Program-made: the position numbers and the translations under genes | In this document: piece by piece, positions 2,400 to 52,625 of the stretch | Numbering within the stretch: the stretch's first letter is position 1 | Layout: every line of letters begins with the position of its first letter | Notes under the pieces: model-generated | The model's database searches: none | Seen by the model: the letters and a program-made list of their open reading frames with translations, nothing else | Told to the model about the DNA's origin: nothing | Assembly: GCA_024137785.1 (NCBI GenBank) | Contig: JAHRHZ010000021.1 | Span: forward strand, 22,702,212-22,766,211 | Source of the DNA: Ginglymostoma cirratum | Taxonomy: Eukaryota | Direction of reading: 5' to 3' | DNA length: 64,000 nucleotides

Positions 2400-4262
2400 T
2401 CTGTGGATGAGTGTGAACCTAACCTATGGACCATATATGTACGCTGTGTTTTTTGTCTAGAGAACATCTTCCCGACTACTGAAATTGTAGTGCGGAATTA
2501 AGGATGTAACGTCGAGGAAAACGGTTGCGGCCGGACTTGAGCTATGGCCGGTGTCAGTAAAGAAGGATCTCTCTGGGGAGTGGGTCGAGAACGGCGATTG
2601 AAGAAGAGTATCCACCTGGGAGCTACCAAATTTGTTGCGCAGAGCAATCATGAGGGGACTCAGGCTGTGGGTGATGCCAGGGAGGAATGGTATGCTCGCA
2701 TGGTAAGTGAGGGAGCAGCTGATGCAGGAGGGGACTTAAGCTGTGAACAGTTACTAGACTTGAGTGGCATGAAAACTAAATGGTGGGTCATTTTAGAGCA
2801 ATGGGACCATTCAGTGAAGATCAGAAAATTGGACTTTACACAGGTAACAATTCAATTCATTCTTAAAGGCGAACAAAATGGCTGAGAACGTCATAGTACT
2901 AATTTTCTTAAGTACCATCGAGATCAAGACTGTCGCAATTCTAAGGTGTTTGATACAACCAGAGAAACCCGTGGGGAAGACATTTCAAGACATATGTGAA
3001 GTATTAGTAAACTATTTTGTATCCAAGCTCCTGATGGTCATAGAATGGTTCCATTTTTACAGACAGGCACATGGCCACCTCAAAGAGGCTAGCGGAACAT
3101 TGTGAATTCAGAGGGTTCTCCAAGATATCCTGTGGGACTATTTGGATTATAGCCTCTGACATGAAACCATCCAACGGAAGCTATTAGCAAGGAAAGACCT
3201 CGATTTCAAAACAGCTTATGAAACTGTTACCTCAATGGAGTTGGCTGCCAATGAAGTAACCCAAAAGTTGGCTGACGATGCCTGGGTGCACCAAGTACTG
3301 GAAACTTGGCAGACTGTGATACCAAGTACTGAATACTGCTGATGTAGTAAGAGTGGCCACAAGGAGTCAGTATGTTGGACTTGAGAAGCCTAGTGCTGCA
3401 GGTGTAAGGAAGTGAATCATATTGCCTGAAATTAGTGGGTAGAACTCAACCAGAAAGGAAATCTAAAGGAGACAAGTCAGAGGGCAAGGCATAAGGTACA
3501 TGCTACCAGGGAGTCAGCCAAGTCTGCGGGAGAAGCCACAGGCCCAGATTTAGTGGAGTTCCGGTTAAACCTACTGTCGGTATAGGGTGAAGCTGATTGT
3601 TTCTGGGTTCTTCCCAAATTAGAAGGGAAAATCATAAAAATAGAAGTGGATATGAATGCAGCAGTGTACCTGATTCCTCAATCAATACACAGAGATACGT
3701 TAAAAGCACTATCATTGAAGCCAGCAAAGATTGCACTGCAGACTTAGATGGAACAAGTGGTGCCACTAAAGGGTTAAGCACTGGTGAAAGTACAGTTAAG
3801 GGACCAGTGTTTGGAACTGTCACTTTATATGTAAAAGACAAATACCCAGCATTATTTAGACAATCTTGATTACAAAATTTAAGGTTGAAATAGGGGACTG
3901 TTGATAGGTAGCAAGAGATCCTGGAAAGTACATCGATATCTTCAAAAGAACCCTGGGGGAAACAAAAGTTGTTGAAATTCAATTAGAATTGAAGTCAGAG
4001 GCTCGTCCTAAGAGTCTGAAGGCATATCCGGTACCATGTGGAGGTAGAACTGGAACAGCTGGTGAATCTGGGAGCATTGGAAGCAGTAACCACTAGTGAA
4101 TGGGCTACTCCAAACGTTCTGGTCTTAAAAACAGATGGCATGGTGAAGATTGGTGACTTTAAGATCACAGTCAACTCAGCCCTGAGTGTGGATCAATACC
4201 CCTTTCCACCCATTGAAGACCTATTCAGTGGACTGGCAAGGGAAAAGAAATTTTGAAAAATG

Positions 4263-4912
4263 GAGATAACAAGCATGGGGCTGGATGAACACAGCAGGTC
4301 AAGCAGCATCATAGGAGCAGGAAAACTTGACGTTTCGGGCCTAAACCCTTCATCAGAAAAATNNNNNNNNNNNNNNNNNNNNNNNNNNNNNNNNNNNNNN
4401 NNNNNNNNNNNNNNNNNNNNNNNNNNNNNNNNNNNNNNNNNNNNNNNNNNNNNNNNNNNNNNNNNNNNNNNNNNNNNNNNNNNNNNNNNNNNNNNNNNNN
4501 NNNNNNNNNNNNNNNNNNNNNNNNNNNNNNNNNNNNNNNNNNNNNNNNNNNNNNNNNNNNNNNNNNNNNNNNNNNNNNNNNNNNNNNNNNNNNNNNNNNN
4601 NNNNNNNNNNNNNNNNNNNNNNNNNNNNNNNNNNNNNNNNNNNNNNNNNNNNNNNNNNNNNNNNNNNNNNNNNNNNNNNNNNNNNNNNNNNNNNNNNNNN
4701 NNNNNNNNNNNNNNNNNNNNNNNNNNNNNNNNNNNNNNNNNNNNNNNNNNNNNNNNNNNNNNACCCTTCATCAGAAAAATCTGATTTCTGATGAAGGGTT
4801 TAGGCCCTAAACGTCAAGTTTTCCTGCTCCTATGATGCTGCTTGACCTGCTGTGTTCATCCAGCCCCATGCTTGTTATCTCGGATTCTCCAGCATCTGCA
4901 GTACCTTTTATC
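4263..4912. mobile_element. Penelope-like pLTR-derived inverted-repeat insertion carrying hammerhead motifs (spans a 400-N gap)
   Basis: Arms 4263-4359 and 4785-4912 are near-perfect reverse complements; flanked by a 13-bp direct repeat tttgaaaaatgga (4252-4264, 4913-4925); removing the insert rejoins the Gypsy RT (KF*KMDLLQAYQQM). Confidence 0.85.
4322..4361 (-). ncRNA. Minimal type I hammerhead ribozyme motif, core intact
   Basis: Minus strand reads UUU-CUGAUGA-A-GGGU-UUAG-GCCC-GAAA-CGUC-AAG: conserved core boxes, 4-bp stem II, loopless palindromic ACGU stem III, short stem I. Confidence 0.7.
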
Positions 4913-5720
4913 TTTGAAAAATGGATCTGTTGCAGGCCTATCAACAGATGAGGGTCGCAAAGGTGTCCCAACTGCTGCAGACAATGGTGACACATGGGAT
5001 GTTTTAGCTACAAGCGACTTTCTTTAGGCATCATATCAGTGCTAGCTCTGTTCCAGAGGGCCATGGATCAAATAGTAAGTGGATTGCCGGGAGTCCAGTG
5101 TTATCTGAATGATATTTTGATTACTGGATCCTCCAAAGAGGAGCATTGGAAAAATCTATAGGGGACCTTAAAAAGATTGCAGGAGCACAACATGAAAGTA
5201 AAAATGGTGAAATTCAAGTTTTTTTAATGATCCCATGGAGTACCTGAGCTATGTAATCAATGGCAATGGACTACCCAAGGCACACAAAAAAGATGGAGAT
5301 CATCATGCAGGCCCCTAGAGCAGACAGTGTGCCTTAACTGAGATCATTCTTCGGACTTATCAGTTGTTATAGCAAGTTCAACTCATGTCTGGCTACAGTG
5401 TTAAAGGCCCTGCATTGGTTGCTGGGAAAAGGCCGGCTGCGGAAATGGACCCCAGACTGTAATGTGGCTTACTGGAAGGTGAAGCAACCCTTCTAAAGGT
5501 CTGAAGTGTTAATGCATTTTGACCTAAAGTTGCCACTAGAGTTAATGTGGCGCTATACCTAATGGGGTTGATGCTGTACTGTCACAAATCTCACCGAATG
5601 GAGAGGAAAGGCACATTACATTTGCATCGAGATCGCTAATAAAGATGGAGGAGAATTATCCTCAAGTTGATAAAAAAGGATTGAGCATTGTGTTCGGTGT
5701 AAAAAGAAATTTACCCAGCA

Positions 5721-14566: not shown

Positions 14567-14660
14567 GGTCTGTACGTTTCCAGCTCTGAGTGTTATGCCA
14601 AATGGATTTGAATTGTAGTGATTGCAGATTGAATGGGTGTGATTGTAACATTGAATATTT

Positions 14661-14947
14661 GGGGCAGCACAGTAGCTCAGTGGTTAGCATTGCTGCCTCA
14701 CAGTGCCAGGGACCTGGGTTCAGTTCCACCCTCAGGTGGCTGTCTGTGTGGAGTTTGCACATTCTCTGCATGGGTGTCCTCTGGGTGCTCTGGTTTCCTC
14801 CCACAATCCAAAGATGTGCAGGCTCAGTGGATTGGCCATGCTAAATTGCCCATAGTGTTCAGGGATGGGTCTGGGTGGGATACTCTGAGTGTCAGTGTGG
14901 ACTTGTTGGGCAAAAGGGCCTGTTTCCACAATGTCAGGATTCTATGA
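14661..14947 (+). mobile_element. HE1/V-SINE-type shark SINE
   Basis: tRNA-like head (A box tagctcagtgg, B box-like ggttcagttcc), central ctgtgtggagtttgcacattctc...ggtttcctcccacaatccaaagatgtgc, CR1-derived ttctatga tail. Confidence 0.9.
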
Positions 14948-16649
14948 TAGCTGGCACATTTATTTGGTATGCTAGATCTTACTCATTGTTTTTAGCTTGT
15001 TCTTAATATCATGAATAGTTTTTAAAAATATATATTTCTTTTGTTTGAGTATGCAACTTTGTTATCAATTTGTACTTTCCATTGTGCTTAAGATTGTATC
15101 AAATGCATGGGAAGCATGCCTTACAGTACAAGCCACTCATTTAGACATTGATGAAGGTGTCATCATTTTTATTTCCATTACATTTGTTCAACGGATATTC
15201 ACATAGAAATGAGTGCTTCTGCAATTATACTGAATTTTCCAGTTTTTAACTGACAAATAATTCACAAATAACTATGGGAAGTAGCCTGACTGGCTTGTTA
15301 TGCTTTCAAGAAAAGTCAGAGATTTTCAGTGAATCTTTTAAGCCATTGTTTGCAGGATATGTGTTTTAGTCTTAGGTTTGGGTAAAGACATAAGACTGAA
15401 GACAAACCTTGAACCAGAGATTAAGTGAAGAAAAAAAAGAGTCATATAGAGCTAGAGAGACATGAGGAATAGTGAAAAATCGTGAAAATCTAAACCTTAA
15501 GTAAATATGTGATGAGTGGTTCTGAAGAGAAACTTTGCACCTTTAATAATGTTAACAACAATCTCCCCAACCACAGAAAACAACCACTGGTGAAAGAACT
15601 ATTATTTTTTCTTAGGGAATTTATCTCCCTTCTAACTGGTAAATACATATGAAACAAATCCTAGATAAACAACCTGTGTTGGACTGGTTTGTTTCCTTTT
15701 ACCAGGATTTGCATAATCTGGTAATATAAGTAACGGTAGGAACATTCCTACTTGTACGGTAATTACCTATTTGTTTATACGCTGGGAAAATTAAAAGGGA
15801 GGAGAAATGACTGATCTATATACTTTTTGATGCCTTTGTTTGCTATTACTTTTTGAAGTCAATCAAAACATTTTAATTTTAAAAACCAAAACAAAAGAAA
15901 CACGAAGAGACTGGGAACAACAAACCACTAATAATATATTAAAATATACATTTAGTTAGTTATTTCCGAGTCATTTGCAGTGAAACAAATTCCAACGACC
16001 TTGCGGCGAAGCTATTGCACTGTGGATCATAATATCATATTGAATTATTGAAACCTTGTAAAGCGTTTAACCACTTTTAAACGTATCTTTGGCTATGCGC
16101 ACCTTCAAATAAAAACAAGTCCAAATGATTATGGATATAAGTACATTATTATCAATACTTTTATTTGTGCATTAGTATCGAGTGTGCCCGTAAAACGTTA
16201 AGAATGATAAAATGTTATCTCCCCAACACCATCCCATTGCACCTCCCACACCCCAAATACTATTTCTTGTTGATCTAGGGAAGGATTCTGTGCTGCAGGT
16301 TGCAAATGGGAAAACTTTGTTTTATAGTTAGGAATTCCTCCTCTTCGTTATGCTTTCTGGGGAATGTCGCGCCTTGGGCCAGGCCAACATTTATTATCCA
16401 TTCCTAATACTGACGGGACTATGAAAATGAAATTCAGGAGTTCAACGAGTATTACTTTGAGATATAGTCATTTTTCTGAAAGGATCAAGGTGCATTGAAG
16501 GATTTTTTTTCTGTCAAATGGCGAGGTGGCTTGGTTAGAGACCTGTACCGCATAAGCAGAACCTCGCTCTCCGTGCTGTGGGTCCAACAGTGCATCAATG
16601 ATAAGAGTCTGTAGGACTGTAAGACCTGGGGACAGCCTTCTGGTTCTGG

Positions 16650-21149: not shown

Positions 21150-21358
21150 CTGTGGGTTTCCTCAGGGTGCTCCGGTTTCCTCCCGCAGTCCAAAGATGTG
21201 CAGGCTAGGTGGATTGGCCATGCTAAATTACCCATAGTGTTCATGAATGTGTAGATTAGGTGGATTCTAGGGGGATGGGTCTGGGTGCAATGCTTTGAGG
21301 GTCAGTGCAGATTTGTTGGCCCAAATGGCCTGTTTCCACACTGTAGGCATTCTATGAT
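21150..21358 (+). mobile_element. HE1/V-SINE-type SINE, 5'-truncated
   Basis: gtgggtttcctcagggtgctccggtttcctcccgcagtccaaagatgtgcagg...ttctatga. Confidence 0.85.
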
Positions 21359-45814: not shown

Positions 45815-46122
45815 GATCATAGAATTCCTACAGTGTGGAAACTTTGGCCCAACAAGTCCATACTGACCCTCAGAGCATTGCACCCAGACCCAGACCCAGA
45901 CCCATCCCCCTATAACCCACCTAGTCTACACATCCCTGAACACTACAGGCAATTCAACATGGCCAATCCACCTAGCCTGCACGTCTTTGGACTGTGAGAG
46001 GAAACCCATGCAGACACTGGGAGAGTGTGCAAACTCCACACAGACAGTTGCTTGAGGCTGGAATTGAACCTGGGTCCCTGGCACTGAGGCAGCAGTGCTA
46101 ACCACTGAGCCACCGTGCCACC
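45815..46122 (-). mobile_element. HE1/V-SINE-type SINE
   Basis: Reverse complement begins gggtggcacggtggctcagtggttagcactgctgcctca and ends ttctatga. Confidence 0.9.
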
Positions 46123-46588
46123 CAAACAACAATCGCTTTGTCCCCTGGTGGTCTTGAGCCACCAATCCTTTGGTTAACAGCAGATTGCACAAACTAATTA
46201 CACCACACAGATGGATAAACGTAGTGCCCCGTGTGAGGTGTGGAAGGACTGTAAATCGAATACTTTTTAAAAATCTTTTCCATTTTATTCTTTTTATTTA
46301 CTACTTTTTCTCTTTTTTTATACCAAATATTTAGGTGTCTTGTACCTAAGATGGCGCTGTAAGTGGCGACTTGTAAACTTTTCATTTGAGGACGTGTGAC
46401 AATAAAGCTAATTCATTTCAGTTCGGCTCATATAGAGTGAGGACAAAGAAGCAGGATTTGGCCAATCAGACTGTATAGTGTTCTCCACAGCTGTCTTTTA
46501 CCATGGCTGTCGTAACCTATCATCCTATTCCCTTAGTATCCCTATTGCTCTGGATATTTTTGTCTTCTGGAAGTCTCTTGTCATATTA

Positions 46589-46865
46589 GGGGTGGCGTGG
46601 TGGCTCAGTGGTTAGCACTGCTGCCTCACAGCACTAGGGACCCAGGTTCAATTCTACCCTTGGGCAACTGTCTGCTTGGAGTTTGCACATTCTCCCTGTG
46701 TCTGTGTGGGTTTCCTCCCACAATCCAAAGATGTGCAGGCTAGATGGATTGGCCATGTTAAATTACCCATAGTGTTCAGGAGTGTGTAGATTATAAGGGG
46801 ATGGGTTCAGGTGGGATACTCCAAGGGTTAGTGTGGATTTGTTGGGCCAAAGGGCCCATTTCCAT
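46589..46865 (+). mobile_element. HE1/V-SINE-type SINE
   Basis: ggggtggcgtggtggctcagtggttagcactgctgcctcac...ggttcaattc...tccaaagatgtgcagg. Confidence 0.9.
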
Positions 46866-48029
46866 GATTAGGTGAGCATATTCAGTGAATACACCACCAC
46901 TATTCAATTGATGGGCAATTCCAAACCTTCCCAACCCCCTGAGAGAATGAAGTCCTTTACATATTGGTGATGTATTGCCTACCTGTTATCCTGAGTGTGT
47001 TTTCTCTGGCTATGGAGACTGAGCCAGGGAAAAGACCTTTCCTGCCTCTATCCTGCAGAGCTTTGTCAGATTTTCTTTATGCCTCACATAGTCTCCTCTT
47101 TCCTGCAATGTAGTGAATACGGGCCCAATCTCCTTCATGTTTCCTTACTCAACAATCCACTGTGCCTATAATCAGTCTTGTGAGCTTTAGTTGCAGGGTC
47201 CCCACATAGGTCTAACCTACTCTAGGTAATGAGAACAACATGAGGCACTCATATTGTGGATGATGTGAAATAATAAATGATCTGTAGGTGGAAGACCATT
47301 CATCCAGCCATGCTGGCACCTTGTGGCATACCTGTGTGCAAGTGAGCATTTATTTATAGAAGTCCAAACTATAGATATTGAATAAATAGCCATGTCACAC
47401 AGATGCCTCATATCTCTTCCTTCTTTGCCCACCACTAGGCACTGCTCTGACATCTAAAGCTGTGGTGGTACTGATGCCATGTCTTGTTAATTGTGATGAC
47501 TTTGGCAGATGTCTTTTGATGGTATGGGGCTTAAAGGTTCGTAAAGGTGCTGCAGGTCTCCTGCACAAGTGCATTTCTCCCCTGCCTAACCTACTGGAGG
47601 TGATTGGGTCAATGGCAGAGGGGAGGTAGAAAGGCAGGGCAGCTCTGGGGTGCCTGGCTGGTGCTTCTCTTCCCTTTGGGTGTCCTTGAAGAAAAGGGGT
47701 AATGGGAGGAAGGCCAAGTTCCTTTGTCCCACTCTCGCTTTGCTATTGATTCCCAGCATCTGTGCCTATAGTGGTGGATTGCAGGTCTAAACACACATCT
47801 AGCAACCAACTGTGTTCTGCTGGACTTGGACCTTCAATGTAGCTACTACTCTTTCAATGGAAGCTTCCTGGAGCAATGACAGTACATAGATCTGGCATTG
47901 CCATGTCAGGTCTTTGGTCCTCCCAAGAAAGTGATTAACAAGTTCATTGTCCTGCAACTGGTAGAACCTGTGGTTGTACTGTCATTAAATTTTCAGAACA
48001 CATTTATTAAATTACCATGTCAAAGGTTA

Positions 48030-48490: not shown

Positions 48491-48691
48491 CAGGAAGGAA
48501 CCCAGCATCAGGAAGGGGTGGACTGCTGACAGCCATCTGCTGTCCTTGCTTCCTACACCTCTCCACATTAACCCATCTAATGATGTCCCTTGTCCCTTGT
48601 GCTATTATTGGAAAGGTGTCCTACTGGAGTAACCACTATCTGCCAATGGTATCCCTCCTCAATAGAACTGCTACACTCTGGCCGGTGATAA

Positions 48692-49295
48692 GAGATAAAA
48701 GGTACTGCAGATGCTGGAGAATCCGAGATAACAAGCATGGGGCTGGATGAACACAGCAGGTCAAGCAGCATCATAGGAGCAGGAAAACTTGACGTTTCGG
48801 GCCTAAACCCTTNNNNNNNNNNNNNNNNNNNNNNNNNNNNNNNNNNNNNNNNNNNNNNNNNNNNNNNNNNNNNNNNNNNNNNNNNNNNNNNNNNNNNNNN
48901 NNNNNNNNNNNNNNNNNNNNNNNNNNNNNNNNNNNNNNNNNNNNNNNNNNNNNNNNNNNNNNNNNNNNNNNNNNNNNNNNNNNNNNNNNNNNNNNNNNNN
49001 NNNNNNNNNNNNNNNNNNNNNNNNNNNNNNNNNNNNNNNNNNNNNNNNNNNNNNNNNNNNNNNNNNNNNNNNNNNNNNNNNNNNNNNNNNNNNNNNNNNN
49101 NNNNNNNNNNNNNNNNNNNNNNNNNNNNNNNNNNNNNNNNNNNNNNNNNNNNNNNNNNNNNNNNNNNNNNNNNNNNNNNNNNNNNNNNNNNNNNNNNNNN
49201 NNNNNNNNNNNNCCCTTTTGATGAAGGGTTTAGGCCCGAAACGTCAAGTTTTCCTGCTCCTATGATGCTGCTTGACCTGCTGTGTTCATCCAGCC
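48692..49295. mobile_element. Second Penelope-like inverted-repeat insertion (spans a 400-N gap)
   Basis: Arms 48692-48812 and 49218-49295 are reverse complements, essentially identical to those at 4263-4912; flanked by a 16-bp direct repeat ctacactctggccggt (48671-48686, 49296-49311). Confidence 0.85.
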
Positions 49296-52200
49296 CTACA
49301 CTCTGGCCGGTATCTGGCAGGCAGTGGGACTTCCTTGCACAGGTTCCTTGATCCCAGGAAGCAGCCCACTGCTGTTCAGTTAAGTGCCTGAACGACACCT
49401 AATACGAGAGGCCTTCCTAAAAAGAGGAAAGTTAGGGCTCTTGTCATCTCTGCAGTTAGTGATGAACCCCTGCGGCTTCCATTAAGTACCACTTGCTAAC
49501 TCTCTTTCTCTCTGTGATGCTGCCTGACATATTCATAAGAACTTCAACAATAGACTGGAAGTGTACAAGACTTAATATTGATCTATTTTAGCACACAGCA
49601 TGGTATCTTTATGTTGCAAAGCTTAATTTATATTGTCGGATAAAAGAAGCAGCACAAAATGATCAGAAATGATTGGAAACAATTAAATCAGTAACATTCC
49701 ATAATATGTGCATGATCCCCTCCTTTTGGAGTACTAACCAGGCAGTACAGACAAACATTTAGCCTCTGGACTCTTCCTCCCTCCATTATCCCCCTACCTA
49801 CTGAATCGTTTCATATTCTTCTGCTATCATTCCTTTCTTAGTTTCCTTAAACCTTTCCACCCTTTTACAATTGTCATACTTTCAAAAGCCAAGCCTAATG
49901 TTGCTTAGTCACGACTTCCCAATTTGTTTTTCTCAGCATTAGTTTTCTCTCTCTTGATGGTGATGTTTGTTTTTGCAATAAAATTATGGCCTTCAGGTCT
50001 TACTGGTAGCAGCATGAAGAGCTAAAACCTGGCTTAGGTCAAAACGTATTTAATTCAATTTGCAGTAATACGATCATGACTGGAATTTATTTCAATGAAG
50101 CTTTTTGTTACTTGGAAAGAAGTAAATCATTCACAACTTGTCAACAAATAAATGCCATTTGCCAAAGGAGGTCTCTTAGGTATTTCACAGTTTATGTAAA
50201 AGTGATTTCTGCCAGGAAATAATGAACTAAGCTTTTACATTTCCTTTTTCTTTTTCTCATTTTGTTTACATCAGGCATTGGTTAGTGTTCATATAATAGA
50301 TGTGAAAATTCCCACGGCAACATCATAAATACACAGTGGCAAAACAGTACTCATATCTTTGGAGTTCTTTTTGCCCAGTTACAACATTTTTAAAATAAAG
50401 ATGGAGCTATACTTTTTTCCAAAAAATATCTTTCGCAGGCAACAATATTATACTTTAAAACAGCTCAAGAACCTGTTAATGGTACCAATTAATTATGTGG
50501 AGCAGTGTAAAGATTTATTTTATACTTTGTAATAAATGCAAGTTCATTTTTACAGTTCTTAAAACATTAGATTTCTAAAGCAATAACTTGACATGGACAG
50601 ATGAATGTGAGAATAAATTCTAGATTTGCAGAGCAGTAAAACTTGTATTATAACTGTTCCTATGCCACATGATTTTTACAATATTTGAGGTTTTACATCA
50701 ATATAAAATACATATTTTTGATAACTTTGTTTGAACTATCATTTCAATTTTGAAAGCATCAGCACCGTTTTCTTTGGAGGGGGCTTTCATACACATTCCC
50801 GTTCAGAGACTGTTGTTGAAAAGCCATTAATAATGCAGTAAATACTGCTGGAGGCTATTTTGATGTCAACCACAGCTTGTTTATAGATTACTAAAATATT
50901 ACTTTAGTTGTTTAAAGGTATGAAGAAAGAACTGCGCTAGAAATCTTTGCCCCTAATTCGTATTAGTGTGCACCGGCGTAGTGATAATGTCATTGCACTG
51001 GCAGTCCGAAACCTCAGCGTAATGTTTGTTCTGTGTTGAAATACCATCATGGCAGGTGGTGAAATTTGAATTAAAGAGAAAATGCACCGTTGATTGGTGT
51101 AAAAACCTGGTTCAGTAATGTTCAATTAGAGATGAGCAATAAATGCAGGCCTAGCCAATGAAGCCCACATCTGTGAATAAAGTAGGAAAAAATATTGCCT
51201 TAATATTTCTTTATATTATTTCTTGCACACCATATTTTAACTTCTGGTTTTTTTGTTTCCACTATCATACCATTCTAGCTTTACCTGAAAGGCAAAGAAA
51301 TAAAATTTGCTCATTGGGTAAAAACTGACATAGAATCAATCTGCCAAATGACCTAATTTATGAACCAACATTTGATAACAAGAATTTATTAAATAATGTG
51401 TCAGTGGCAGGGAGCTAAGGGCAAAATGATTTAGTTGGTGGCTTTCAAATAGTTAATTTACTGTGAATAATTCTGAGGTAGTGACTTATGCAGTATAGGA
51501 TATTACTTTTTTTCAAACACCGGTAACATCAACTGAAATCTGTCAAGCAAAAAAATTTATCTAAGATAATATGAAATCCAATCCTTTGGGAAATAGATCC
51601 AGGTGTTTGAAATGCTGTTTAAGTGCTAAGTGTGTCAGAACCTCAGATATCATGCCATCAGAGGTGATTCTGAAACACCCTCACTCTCTTTGTTGTGTAC
51701 TGAAGGTGACAACTCACCTTCAATCTACTTAAAAGTGAGTGCTACCAACTAATATAAAAACATAAGGTGATTTAGAAAAATGCTGTTGCTACTGTGTGCG
51801 TTTGGCAAGATTTATGATAATTATAATCCAGTGTTTCTTTTTTGGAGTTCAAATCTGTAGACAAGTATTCTACAAAATGTACTTAACAGGAAATCTACAT
51901 TTGCATTATATTTAGCAGCACATTTCAGACAGTAATCTGCTACATTGCATTTAATTTACACTGTGGCTTAAAGAAGATAATATTTATGTGACATTTAAGT
52001 TGGCATTATTATAATTTATTGTTAATTGGATAAACCTCTTCATAGGAAGTCCCTTGGTAATGAGGATGAATTCCATCCACTTGGGTGTTGTAGATCATGA
52101 GGTCATTAAATAATCCAGTGCTAGATCTGCACATTCTGCTGAAGGGGCTTTTGAAGCTGCTAGCGTGCTTGGGTTTTTGCAAGCTCTGTTTGCTGTTTGC

Positions 52201-52529: not shown

Positions 52530-52625
52530 TAACAAGCATGGGGCTGGATGAACACAGCAGGTCAAGCAGCATCATAGGAGCAGGAAAACTTGACGTTTCG
52601 GGCCTAAACCCTTCATCAGAAAAAT
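52530..52625 (-). mobile_element. Single arm of the young Penelope-like family, hammerhead core intact
   Basis: Identical by eye to 4267-4362; CUGAUGA at 52619-52613 and GAAACGUC ending at 52592 on the minus strand. Confidence 0.85.

What the first reader, a model, noticed from the sequence alone, without database searches (positions are those of the whole stretch)
4252..4925. Young head-to-head hairpin mini-element built from hammerhead-bearing Penelope ends
Seen: one arm with the full 3' end (4785-4912) and one 3'-truncated inverted arm (4263-4359), both starting a few nt 5' of a CUGAUGA...GAAACGUC core, inside a 13-bp target duplication. The same design recurs in the opposite orientation at 48.7-49.3 kb, and the five arms in the window are nearly identical. 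Known: Penelope-like elements carry minimal hammerheads in their pLTRs and often have inverted partial pLTRs. Inference: a recently active, possibly ORF-less unit of about 200-250 nt. This is the best candidate for something undescribed here, but it may be ordinary truncated Penelope insertions.
Basis: partly seen in the sequence, partly recalled or inferred. Interest (0 to 1): 0.7.

Follow-up and report, generated by a model that had tools for sequence, protein, structure and literature searches.

The report
Run-off hairpin stubs of Penelope retrotransposon
This is a mirror-image stub, likely about 230 bases long, left by a very abundant Penelope-type jumping gene in a layout already described for these elements; about four in ten copies that reach one spot stop there, which likely marks the front end of the element's RNA and hints at how it copies itself into both cut DNA strands.

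Summary
The hairpin is real: a tailless inverted arm (4263-4359), a tailed arm (4784-4912) and a 13-bp duplication. The 400-N gap is likely artificial: its flanks overlap by 18 nt, and ungapped relatives measure 222-246 nt.

It is not a separate mini-element. The arms are the end piece of a Neptune-type Penelope-like element (44,964 exact tail copies; RT and GIY-YIG in longer copies). Apices differ from site to site (33 kinds at 47 sites), so each hairpin is assembled at insertion. The layout is published.

The junction is not random. Genome-wide, about 42% of arms that pass the hammerhead core stop within the next 9 nt. That stop lies about 30 nt upstream of the predicted cut, at an initiator-like motif, often with an untemplated G. 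In 13 of 27 pairs the geometry needs two separately primed cDNAs.

Best reading: both cut strands prime at the two known internal start sites and run off the RNA's capped 5' end. No start site was mapped. This scan's earlier notes found the same pattern on other DNA.

The parts
4252..4264 (+). Left copy of the 13-bp target-site duplication (last 2 nt shared with the arm)
4263..4359 (-). Tailless inverted arm, element positions -2 to +94 (C of CUGAUGA = +1); intact minimal hammerhead core; followed by AAT (4360-4362)
4363..4762 (.). 400-N assembly gap, likely of negative true size: the flanks overlap by 18 nt
   Evidence: same apex on both sides of 400-N gaps in L181, L182, L186, L188
4763..4784 (+). 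Repeat of the left arm's end (4763-4780) and hairpin apex AAAAATCTGATTT; A4784 is element position -3, preceded by a G that the element does not template
4784..4912 (+). Tailed direct arm, -3 to +125; hammerhead core 4788-4815 with G12 changed to T at 4808; tail of about 31 nt beyond +94
4913..4925 (+). Right copy of the 13-bp target-site duplication
48671..49311 (.). Second hairpin insertion in opposite orientation: 16-bp duplication (48671-48686, 49296-49311), tailed arm 48692-48812, 400 N, tailless arm 49216-49296; about 205 nt if the 5-nt flank overlap is real
52530..52622 (-). Lone tailless arm, -2 to +90, followed by AATTTT; no duplication found

Best explanation
The hairpin is a short insertion product of an autonomous Neptune-type Penelope-like retrotransposon, likely made when both nicked target strands prime reverse transcription at the element's two internal start sites and both copies run off what is likely the capped 5' end of its RNA, about 3 nt before the hammerhead core. 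Shown: family link, two fixed outer ends (about +92 and +129), sharp inner stop at -2 to -5, private apices, 13-16 bp duplications, unequal arms that need two primings. Taken from a relative (Frangieh 2024, in vitro): nicking and extension of both strands and internal initiation at two sites that bound the tail. Inferred: that the stop is a transcription start with a cap; that the two cDNA ends are joined by microhomology with short re-copied inserts; that copies reading further 5' come from the 3' repeat or from tandem or circular RNA; that the stubs cannot move again.
For: Survival of arms genome-wide: 28,821 reach -1, 15,393 reach -10, 14,116 reach -19. The control of 9 more nt on the 3' side keeps 26,657. 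That is 53% kept against 92% background, or 42% excess loss. Position-ordered sample, 94 of the 100 tail copies listed: 22 of 72 direct arms not cut by a gap end at -6..0 (1.3 expected) and 1 of 72 at +27..+31; 13 of 35 inverted arms end at -6..0 and 0 of 35 near the cut. Outer ends: 33 of 47 inverted arms at +88..+94. In 13 of 27 ungapped pairs the tailless arm reaches over 10 nt further 5' than the tailed arm, which snap-back copying of one cDNA cannot give. Copies bearing the ORF start also stop there: 5 stop (2 at gap edges), 3 read through, of 30 examined. 4 of 4 long loci show a -2/-4 unit joined to a point inside the ORF, as after a template jump. The sequence CCATTTC fits the initiator consensus (recalled) with A at -3. 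Where A(-3) is kept and the templated C(-4) is not, the next base is G in 65, A in 27 and T in 8 of the first 100 listed of 2,455 (counted by eye). L247 has exactly one G between its duplication and A(-3). Untemplated G is read as cap copying in L1 and SVA (PMC4859970, passages). Raw RNA reads show the opposite-strand joints at -2 (54 reads, about 41 starts); 10 of the 12 such rows shown have a side at -6..+2.
Against: No start site was seen in RNA: one search lists no place where many molecules begin. That library looks unstranded and is likely dominated by embedded copies. The G excess shrinks on inspection: of 18 G cases among 30 loci, about 10-12 can come from the facing arm, the duplication or a re-copied UGA, leaving 6-8 G against 3-4 A and 0 T (p 0.02-0.08). 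Many stopped arms keep C(-4) or CC(-5), so the end is ragged. The initiator motif carries little information in a pyrimidine tract, and no DPE sits at canonical spacing (checked by eye). About 58% of arms read through. No full-length intact copy was found (0 of 4 long loci). There is a smaller pile-up at +5..+10 (10 of 72) that the model does not explain. Arms of one insertion differ at subfamily-diagnostic sites in 9 of 126 comparisons against 1.9% background, so one RNA for both arms is not always the case.
Confidence: 0.58

Rival explanations
1. Same twin priming, but the stop is a roadblock, not an RNA end: a protein on the C-rich tract just upstream, or the tract itself, halts the RT, and host end-joining adds the apex inserts.
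For: The stop lies at the edge of CCCCTCCCCC. About 58% read through. The end is ragged from -2 to -5. Re-copied inserts also fit polymerase-theta joining (own knowledge).
Against: Loss falls to background inside the tract (-10 to -19: 92% kept). A roadblock does not predict the G excess at -4.
Confidence: 0.22
2. Short pLTR stubs or hairpins are themselves transcribed and re-mobilised in trans: a non-autonomous mini-element.
For: Very high copy number. Stubs keep the putative initiator. One 18-nt apex occurs at two sites with unrelated flanks (L112, L171). pLTRs alone can mobilise sequence in trans (PMC3846280, passages).
Against: 33 different apices at 47 sites (counted by eye after merging 3 gap duplicates). 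Both outer ends sit at RT start sites rather than one being randomly truncated. Another shared apex is a flank duplication (L172/L173). In the lizard element the protein needs ORF sequence downstream of the start sites, which stubs lack (PMC11167929).
Confidence: 0.08
3. Self-priming or snap-back: one copy folds back at a palindrome and is copied again (Arkhipova 2013 proposes self-priming on an antisense template).
For: Palindromic apices. Arms agree at 117 of 126 diagnostic comparisons. 9 of 27 pairs end within 10 nt of each other.
Against: In 13 of 27 pairs the tailless arm is the longer one, yet only the shorter arm has the tail. The tailless arm has its own fixed outer end. This argument addresses snap-back of a sense-templated cDNA; the antisense-template version was not tested directly.
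Confidence: 0.07
4. The hammerhead cut makes the RNA end that defines the junction.
For: A minimal type I core is present and conserved, and the stop coincides with the start of helix I (sequence; criteria from PMC4209133).
Against: The predicted cut is after +28, and arms keep the whole core. 1 of 72 direct and 0 of 35 inverted arms end at +27..+31. Uncut RNA was the main template in vitro (PMC11167929).
Confidence: 0.03
5. Assembly artefact, or a multi-kb element hidden in the gap.
For: Both window hairpins contain a 400-N gap. No read spanning site 1 was seen.
Against: 6 of 20 fetched apex loci are ungapped whole hairpins of 222-246 nt, and 4 of 20 show one apex on both sides of a 400-N gap. 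Raw reads hold the joints. Site-1 flanks overlap by 18 nt including untemplated A's.
Confidence: 0.02

Closest known systems
Inverted-pLTR insertions of endonuclease-bearing Penelope-like elements (Adineta Pen2a_Av, PMC3846280, passages; general layout in PMC8557442, passages and Fig. 2 legend)
   Same: Head-to-head inverted repeat, palindromic junction, optional tail of about 31 nt on one arm, target duplication, assembly trouble in short-read genomes.
   Different: Here nothing lies between the arms in thousands of copies, duplications are longer (mode 14 bp against 8-10), and inner ends pile up at one position. The geometry favours two primings over the self-priming that paper proposes.
Poseidon of Anolis carolinensis, PAc (PMC11167929; main text parts 1-2 of 4 read)
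   Same: Two internal RT start sites bounding the tail, near the ORF start; both target strands nicked and extended; hammerhead upstream and not needed for insertion.
   Different: Different clade (this one has the CX2-5CxxC linker). The ORF here starts at about +167, downstream of the tail, not inside the hammerhead. The parts read do not describe run-off hairpin products or a fixed 5' stop in the genome.
Minimal hammerheads of metazoan PLEs (PMC4209133; parts 1-2 of 4 read)
   Same: CUGAUGA core, extra base before helix II, G10.1-C11.1, palindromic CG at 15.2/16.2, short helix I. The paper notes pairs of motifs 100-700 bp apart on opposite strands, likely from truncated PLEs.
   Different: No shark example in the parts read; no mapping of junctions. 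The site-1 tailed arm has lost G12.
Non-LTR retrozymes (bioRxiv 10.64898/2026.07.22.740005; part 1 of 5 and passages)
   Same: ORF-less, type I hammerhead, derived from PLE pLTRs, present in a cartilaginous fish.
   Different: Retrozymes are head-to-tail tandem units thought to copy through RNA circles. These are head-to-head and show no shared unit junction.
L1 twin priming and retroviral strong-stop DNA (twin priming and cap G: PMC4859970, passages; strong-stop: recalled)
   Same: Works like them: two primers on one insertion give an inversion; an internally started cDNA runs off the RNA's 5' end and may jump.
   Different: L1 inversions join non-overlapping parts of the RNA, whereas here both arms copy the same stretch. 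There is no tRNA primer or integrase.

Membership tests
EN+ Penelope-like element (parent family of the arms) | Single ORF with PLE-type RT and C-terminal GIY-YIG linked to this end sequence | tested here: met
   L037 runs from YIDD to VVY...YIG and on into the same 3' end; DKG motif in L221. Pfam GIY-YIG E 0.00024, 21.8 bits, just under the 22.6 cut-off; RVT_1 weak, E 0.019. Shown on partial copies only; no intact full-length copy found.
EN+ Penelope-like element (parent family of the arms) | CCHH motif with two cysteines inside GIY-YIG | tested here: met
   VVYCIRCTRCGFLYIGET...EHL...NHF; criterion from PMC8557442
EN+ Penelope-like element (parent family of the arms) | Inverted 5'-truncated copy and one-sided 30-40 nt tail | tested here: met
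   48 of 94 sampled copies have an inverted arm; outer ends +88..+94 in 33 of 47, against about +127..+131 for tailed arms
EN+ Penelope-like element (parent family of the arms) | Target-site duplication | tested here: met
   13 and 16 bp in the window; 12 bp or more in 37 of 48 copies with an inverted arm
Neptune clade | CX2-5CxxC linker between RT and EN | tested here: met
   CNRRKCYTC; criterion (shared with Nematis)
Neptune clade | RT phylogeny groups with Neptune | not tested
   No named reference sequences were fetched; no tree built
Minimal type I hammerhead | Core bases, extra base before helix II, G10.1-C11.1, palindromic 15.2/16.2, helix I | tested here: met
   Read from sequence against PMC4209133 for the site-1 inverted arm, site 3 and family copies. 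Not met for the site-1 tailed arm (T4808) or the site-2 tailless arm (C3 absent). No Rfam match; the predicted fold is not the hammerhead fold.
Minimal type I hammerhead | Self-cleavage after GUC | not testable with these tools
   No pile-up of copy ends at the site
Non-LTR retrozyme | Head-to-tail tandem units, each with a hammerhead | tested here: not met
   Arms are head-to-head at the window's two hairpins
Self-propagating non-autonomous element (SINE- or MITE-like) | Copies share one internal junction inherited from a master | tested here: not met
   33 apices at 47 sites; one unexplained shared 18-nt apex (L112, L171)
Run-off (strong-stop-like) cDNA | Copy ends coincide with a mapped, capped RNA 5' end | tested here: inconclusive
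   Sharp stop and G excess; no start pile in RNA reads

The most novel reading that the evidence does not exclude
Penelope-like elements make a retrovirus-like strong-stop DNA. The RT starts just ahead of the ORF on its own capped mRNA, copies about 100-130 nt to the cap on both cut target strands, and then either joins the two ends (hairpin stub) or jumps to another point of the RNA, so longer copies and pseudo-LTRs would arise by strand transfer. The shark stubs would be a record of this step in over ten thousand copies, cap G included.
Probability: 0.35. Interest if true: 0.68.

Novelty: new member of a known kind. Interest (0 to 1): 0.38.

Why it matters
How Penelope-like elements build their inverted and tandem ends is stated as unresolved in the papers read (PMC8557442, PMC11167929). 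This family gives tens of thousands of young copies with both start points and a sharp stop, so the question becomes countable. The counts argue against the ribozyme cut and against simple snap-back, and predict a capped start 3 nt before CUGAUGA that one 5' RACE could confirm. In practice, these hairpins open many false 400-N gaps in this assembly. As a new mobile element the finding is ordinary.

Tried and rejected
(1) Idea that G12-to-T marks tailed arms as a class. It came from using the site-1 arm as query. In pairs not picked by that query, 0 of 37 carry T; in the picked set 7 of 7 pairs are G/T, none T/T. It is a sporadic change.
(2) Cut-defined ends: rejected.
(3) Two arms drawn freely from different subfamilies: rejected as the rule, with 117 of 126 diagnostic comparisons concordant.
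(4) A stable special fold of the arm: z-scores from -1.03 to +0.34 in 4 of 4 folds. The predicted pairing of the core with the tail end is not supported beyond that.
(5) RNA start mapping: no pile of read starts; three of the four runs were contigs, which cannot show starts.
(6) Spanning site 1 and testing for an empty allele: no result, so gap size and polymorphism at this site stay untested.
(7) Full-length intact element: not found in 4 long loci or among the longest reading frames of the loci held.
(8) The 200 kb of contiguous neighbouring DNA gave only 14 arm hits at 88% or more and was not used for counts.
(9) DPE at canonical spacing: not found by eye.
(10) Literature: seven searches found no paper describing a fixed 5' stop of PLE copies or shark PLE hairpins. 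Dfam, Repbase and most subscription papers (for example Arkhipova 2006, recalled) could not be searched. Supplements were not read; those of PMC11167929 (Fig. S2) may show such ends.
Rows set aside: 22 of 94 direct arms and 13 of 48 inverted arms end at a gap; loci L001-L030 were left out of end counts as query-biased; L035/L036 and L059/L060 are each two ends of one complex insertion but were counted separately.

Full report
Numbering. Element positions count from the C of CUGAUGA (+1); the base before it is 0. The predicted hammerhead cut is after +28. That the host is a shark is inferred from recalled repeat types and from earlier notes of this scan; the calls show only a 4.36-Gb genome.

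Observation. Site 1 has a 13-bp duplication (4252-4264, 4913-4925), an inverted arm from +94 to -2 (4263-4359), a 400-N gap, and a direct arm from -3 to +125 (4784-4912). The flanks translate in phase into one decayed gypsy-type RT stretch (label recalled), which confirms the duplication. Site 2 has the same design, reversed, with a 16-bp duplication; site 3 is a lone tailless arm. The site-1 tailed arm has T in place of G12 (4808). Rfam finds nothing, but the intact arms meet the minimal-hammerhead criteria of PMC4209133 (parts 1-2 of 4 read).

The gap. The same 18 nt, including extra A's, end the left side and begin the right side. Of 20 apex loci that I chose from the 50 listed, six are ungapped whole hairpins of 222-246 nt, with duplications of 12-16 bp in four, 8 and 9 bp exact in the other two. 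Four show one apex on both sides of a 400-N gap. Raw RNA reads of the same species label hold the opposite-strand joints: -2 to -2 in 54 reads from about 41 starts, and 10 of the 12 such rows shown have one side at -6..+2, with 146 further rows not shown. Removing the overlap gives about 230 nt for site 1. No read spanning this site was seen.

What the arms belong to. The 30-nt tail occurs 44,964 times exactly. Longer copies continue upstream through a pyrimidine-rich 3' region into GIY-YIG and RT. Pfam gives GIY-YIG E 0.00024, just under its cut-off, and a weak RT match. The linker CNRRKCYTC fits the CX2-5CxxC motif of Neptune and Nematis (PMC8557442, passages). Downstream, the tail continues into the ORF start (MPTLKK..., about +167) in up to 1,107 exact matches, and 424 copies hold a deeper ORF word. 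So the arm is the pseudo-LTR of an autonomous family and lies at both ends of its coding unit. No intact full-length copy was found.

The ends are not random. I fetched 94 of the 100 tail copies listed, in position order on one contig. Of 72 direct arms not cut by a gap, 22 end at -6..0, 10 at +1..+10, 17 at +11..+100, 1 at -12..-7, 4 at -100..-13 and 18 further 5'; one ends at +27..+31. Of 35 such inverted arms, 13 end at -6..0 and none near the cut. Both arms end at -6..0 in 8 of 94, others being hidden by gaps. Genome-wide exact counts agree: 28,821 arms reach -1, 15,393 reach -10 and 14,116 reach -19, and a 9-nt control on the 3' side keeps 26,657. About 42% of arms that pass the core stop within the next 9 nt. 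At least 2,875 matches show both arms meeting there within 30 nt, a few counted twice across gaps. Outer ends are also fixed: +88..+94 for 33 of 47 inverted arms, and +127..+131 for 56 of 94 tailed arms, which were selected to reach +125. Duplications have a mode of 14 bp.

Made anew at each insertion. The 50 apices listed are 47 sites with 33 different spacers (counted by eye). They are built from A/T runs and short re-copies of the first bases of the arm. One shared spacer is a flank duplication (L172/L173). One 18-nt spacer at two sites with unrelated flanks (L112/L171) is unexplained. In 27 ungapped pairs the tailless arm reaches over 10 nt further 5' in 13, the tailed arm in 5, and 9 are level (automated boundaries, a few imprecise). 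A fold-back copy of one cDNA cannot both lack the longer 5' part and carry a tail the other strand never had, so two primings are needed. The two arms agree at 117 of 126 subfamily-diagnostic comparisons, slightly below background agreement.

Mechanism. In the lizard element PAc both target strands are nicked and extended, and reverse transcription starts internally at two sites that bound the tail; ribozyme cutting is not required (PMC11167929, parts 1-2 of 4). Applied here, starts at about +92 and +129 on opposite strands give the unequal arms. The stop lies about 30 nt upstream of the cut, at CCATTTC, which fits the initiator consensus (recalled). Drosophila Penelope has an internal TATA-less promoter (PMC2377424, passages). 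Where A(-3) is present without the templated C, the next base is G in 65 of the first 100 listed, A in 27 and T in 8. In 30 loci inspected, 6-8 of 18 G's have no other source, against 3-4 A's (p 0.02-0.08); L247 shows duplication, one G, then A(-3). Untemplated G is taken as cap copying in L1 (PMC4859970, passages). Of 30 copies with the ORF start, 19 have a linked pLTR; 5 stop at -2..-5 and 3 read through. Four long loci, picked for long ORF starts, all show a short unit stopped at -2/-4 and joined to a point inside the ORF. I therefore favour run-off from a capped 5' end (0.58). A roadblock at the C-rich tract is the main rival (0.22), because no start was mapped, ends are ragged and over half of the arms read through.

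Comparison and novelty. The layout is described: inverted pLTR, palindromic junction, one-sided 31-bp tail, duplication (PMC3846280, passages; PMC8557442). Opposite-strand hammerhead pairs from truncated PLEs were noted in PMC4209133. It is not a retrozyme, since those are head-to-tail (bioRxiv 10.64898/2026.07.22.740005, part 1 of 5 and passages). Seven searches found no account of the fixed 5' stop; Dfam, Repbase, subscription papers and all supplements were not seen. Earlier notes of this scan report the same hairpins and the same start-site idea on other DNA; they were read after my reading was formed and are not independent support.

Verdict. Real and young; a new member of a known kind; not a separate mini-element. 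Its value lies in making the Penelope copying mechanism testable. Interest 0.38.

Noticed in passing
window 3900-5300: The host of site 1 is a decayed gypsy-type protease/RT stretch with several stops and frameshifts (family label recalled); the insertion splits the RT motif region.
   Followed up: partly
window 4808; L002-L030: G12-to-T turns GTTTAGGCCCGAAAC into a perfect palindrome around one base; 7 of 7 picked pairs have it on one arm only. It may be a recurrent quasi-palindrome change; frequency against other transversions was not counted.
   Followed up: partly
L112 (C1:3978331) and L171 (C1:4562759): Identical 18-nt apex at two sites 584 kb apart with unrelated flanks; in L171 it precedes a tailless arm. 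Could be one case of a hairpin copied as a unit.
   Followed up: partly
L143, L145, L159, L221-L224: Copies made of pLTR plus ORF start joined to a second pLTR that begins at -2..-4; jump points in the ORF vary from about 100 to 1,500 nt.
   Followed up: partly
L146:1435-1559: A 39-codon upstream ORF runs from inside the pLTR through the tail and stops 2 nt before the main ATG; a shorter one starts inside CUGAUGA.
   Followed up: no
sample: Second, smaller pile-up of 5' ends at +5..+10 (10 of 72), often with AAGG microhomology; the predicted fold pairs this stretch with the tail end (not significant).
   Followed up: no
L146:1474-1487 and 1503-1518: Both inferred RT start sites end in TTATCTC, a short direct repeat that bounds the tail.
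   Followed up: no
genome-wide: Many 400-N gaps of this assembly sit on these hairpins and have overlapping flanks, so they inflate the assembly and duplicate apices.
   Followed up: partly
window 14655-14948, 21153-21358, 45842-46126, 46583-46884, 361-550: Several 70-89% identical copies of a tRNA-like SINE (recalled as a shark SINE), two of them in inverted orientation about 500 nt apart at 45.8-46.9 kb.
   Followed up: no
L035/L036, L059/L060: Complex insertions with tandem or multiply folded pLTR pieces; one carries a tail at both outer ends.
   Followed up: no
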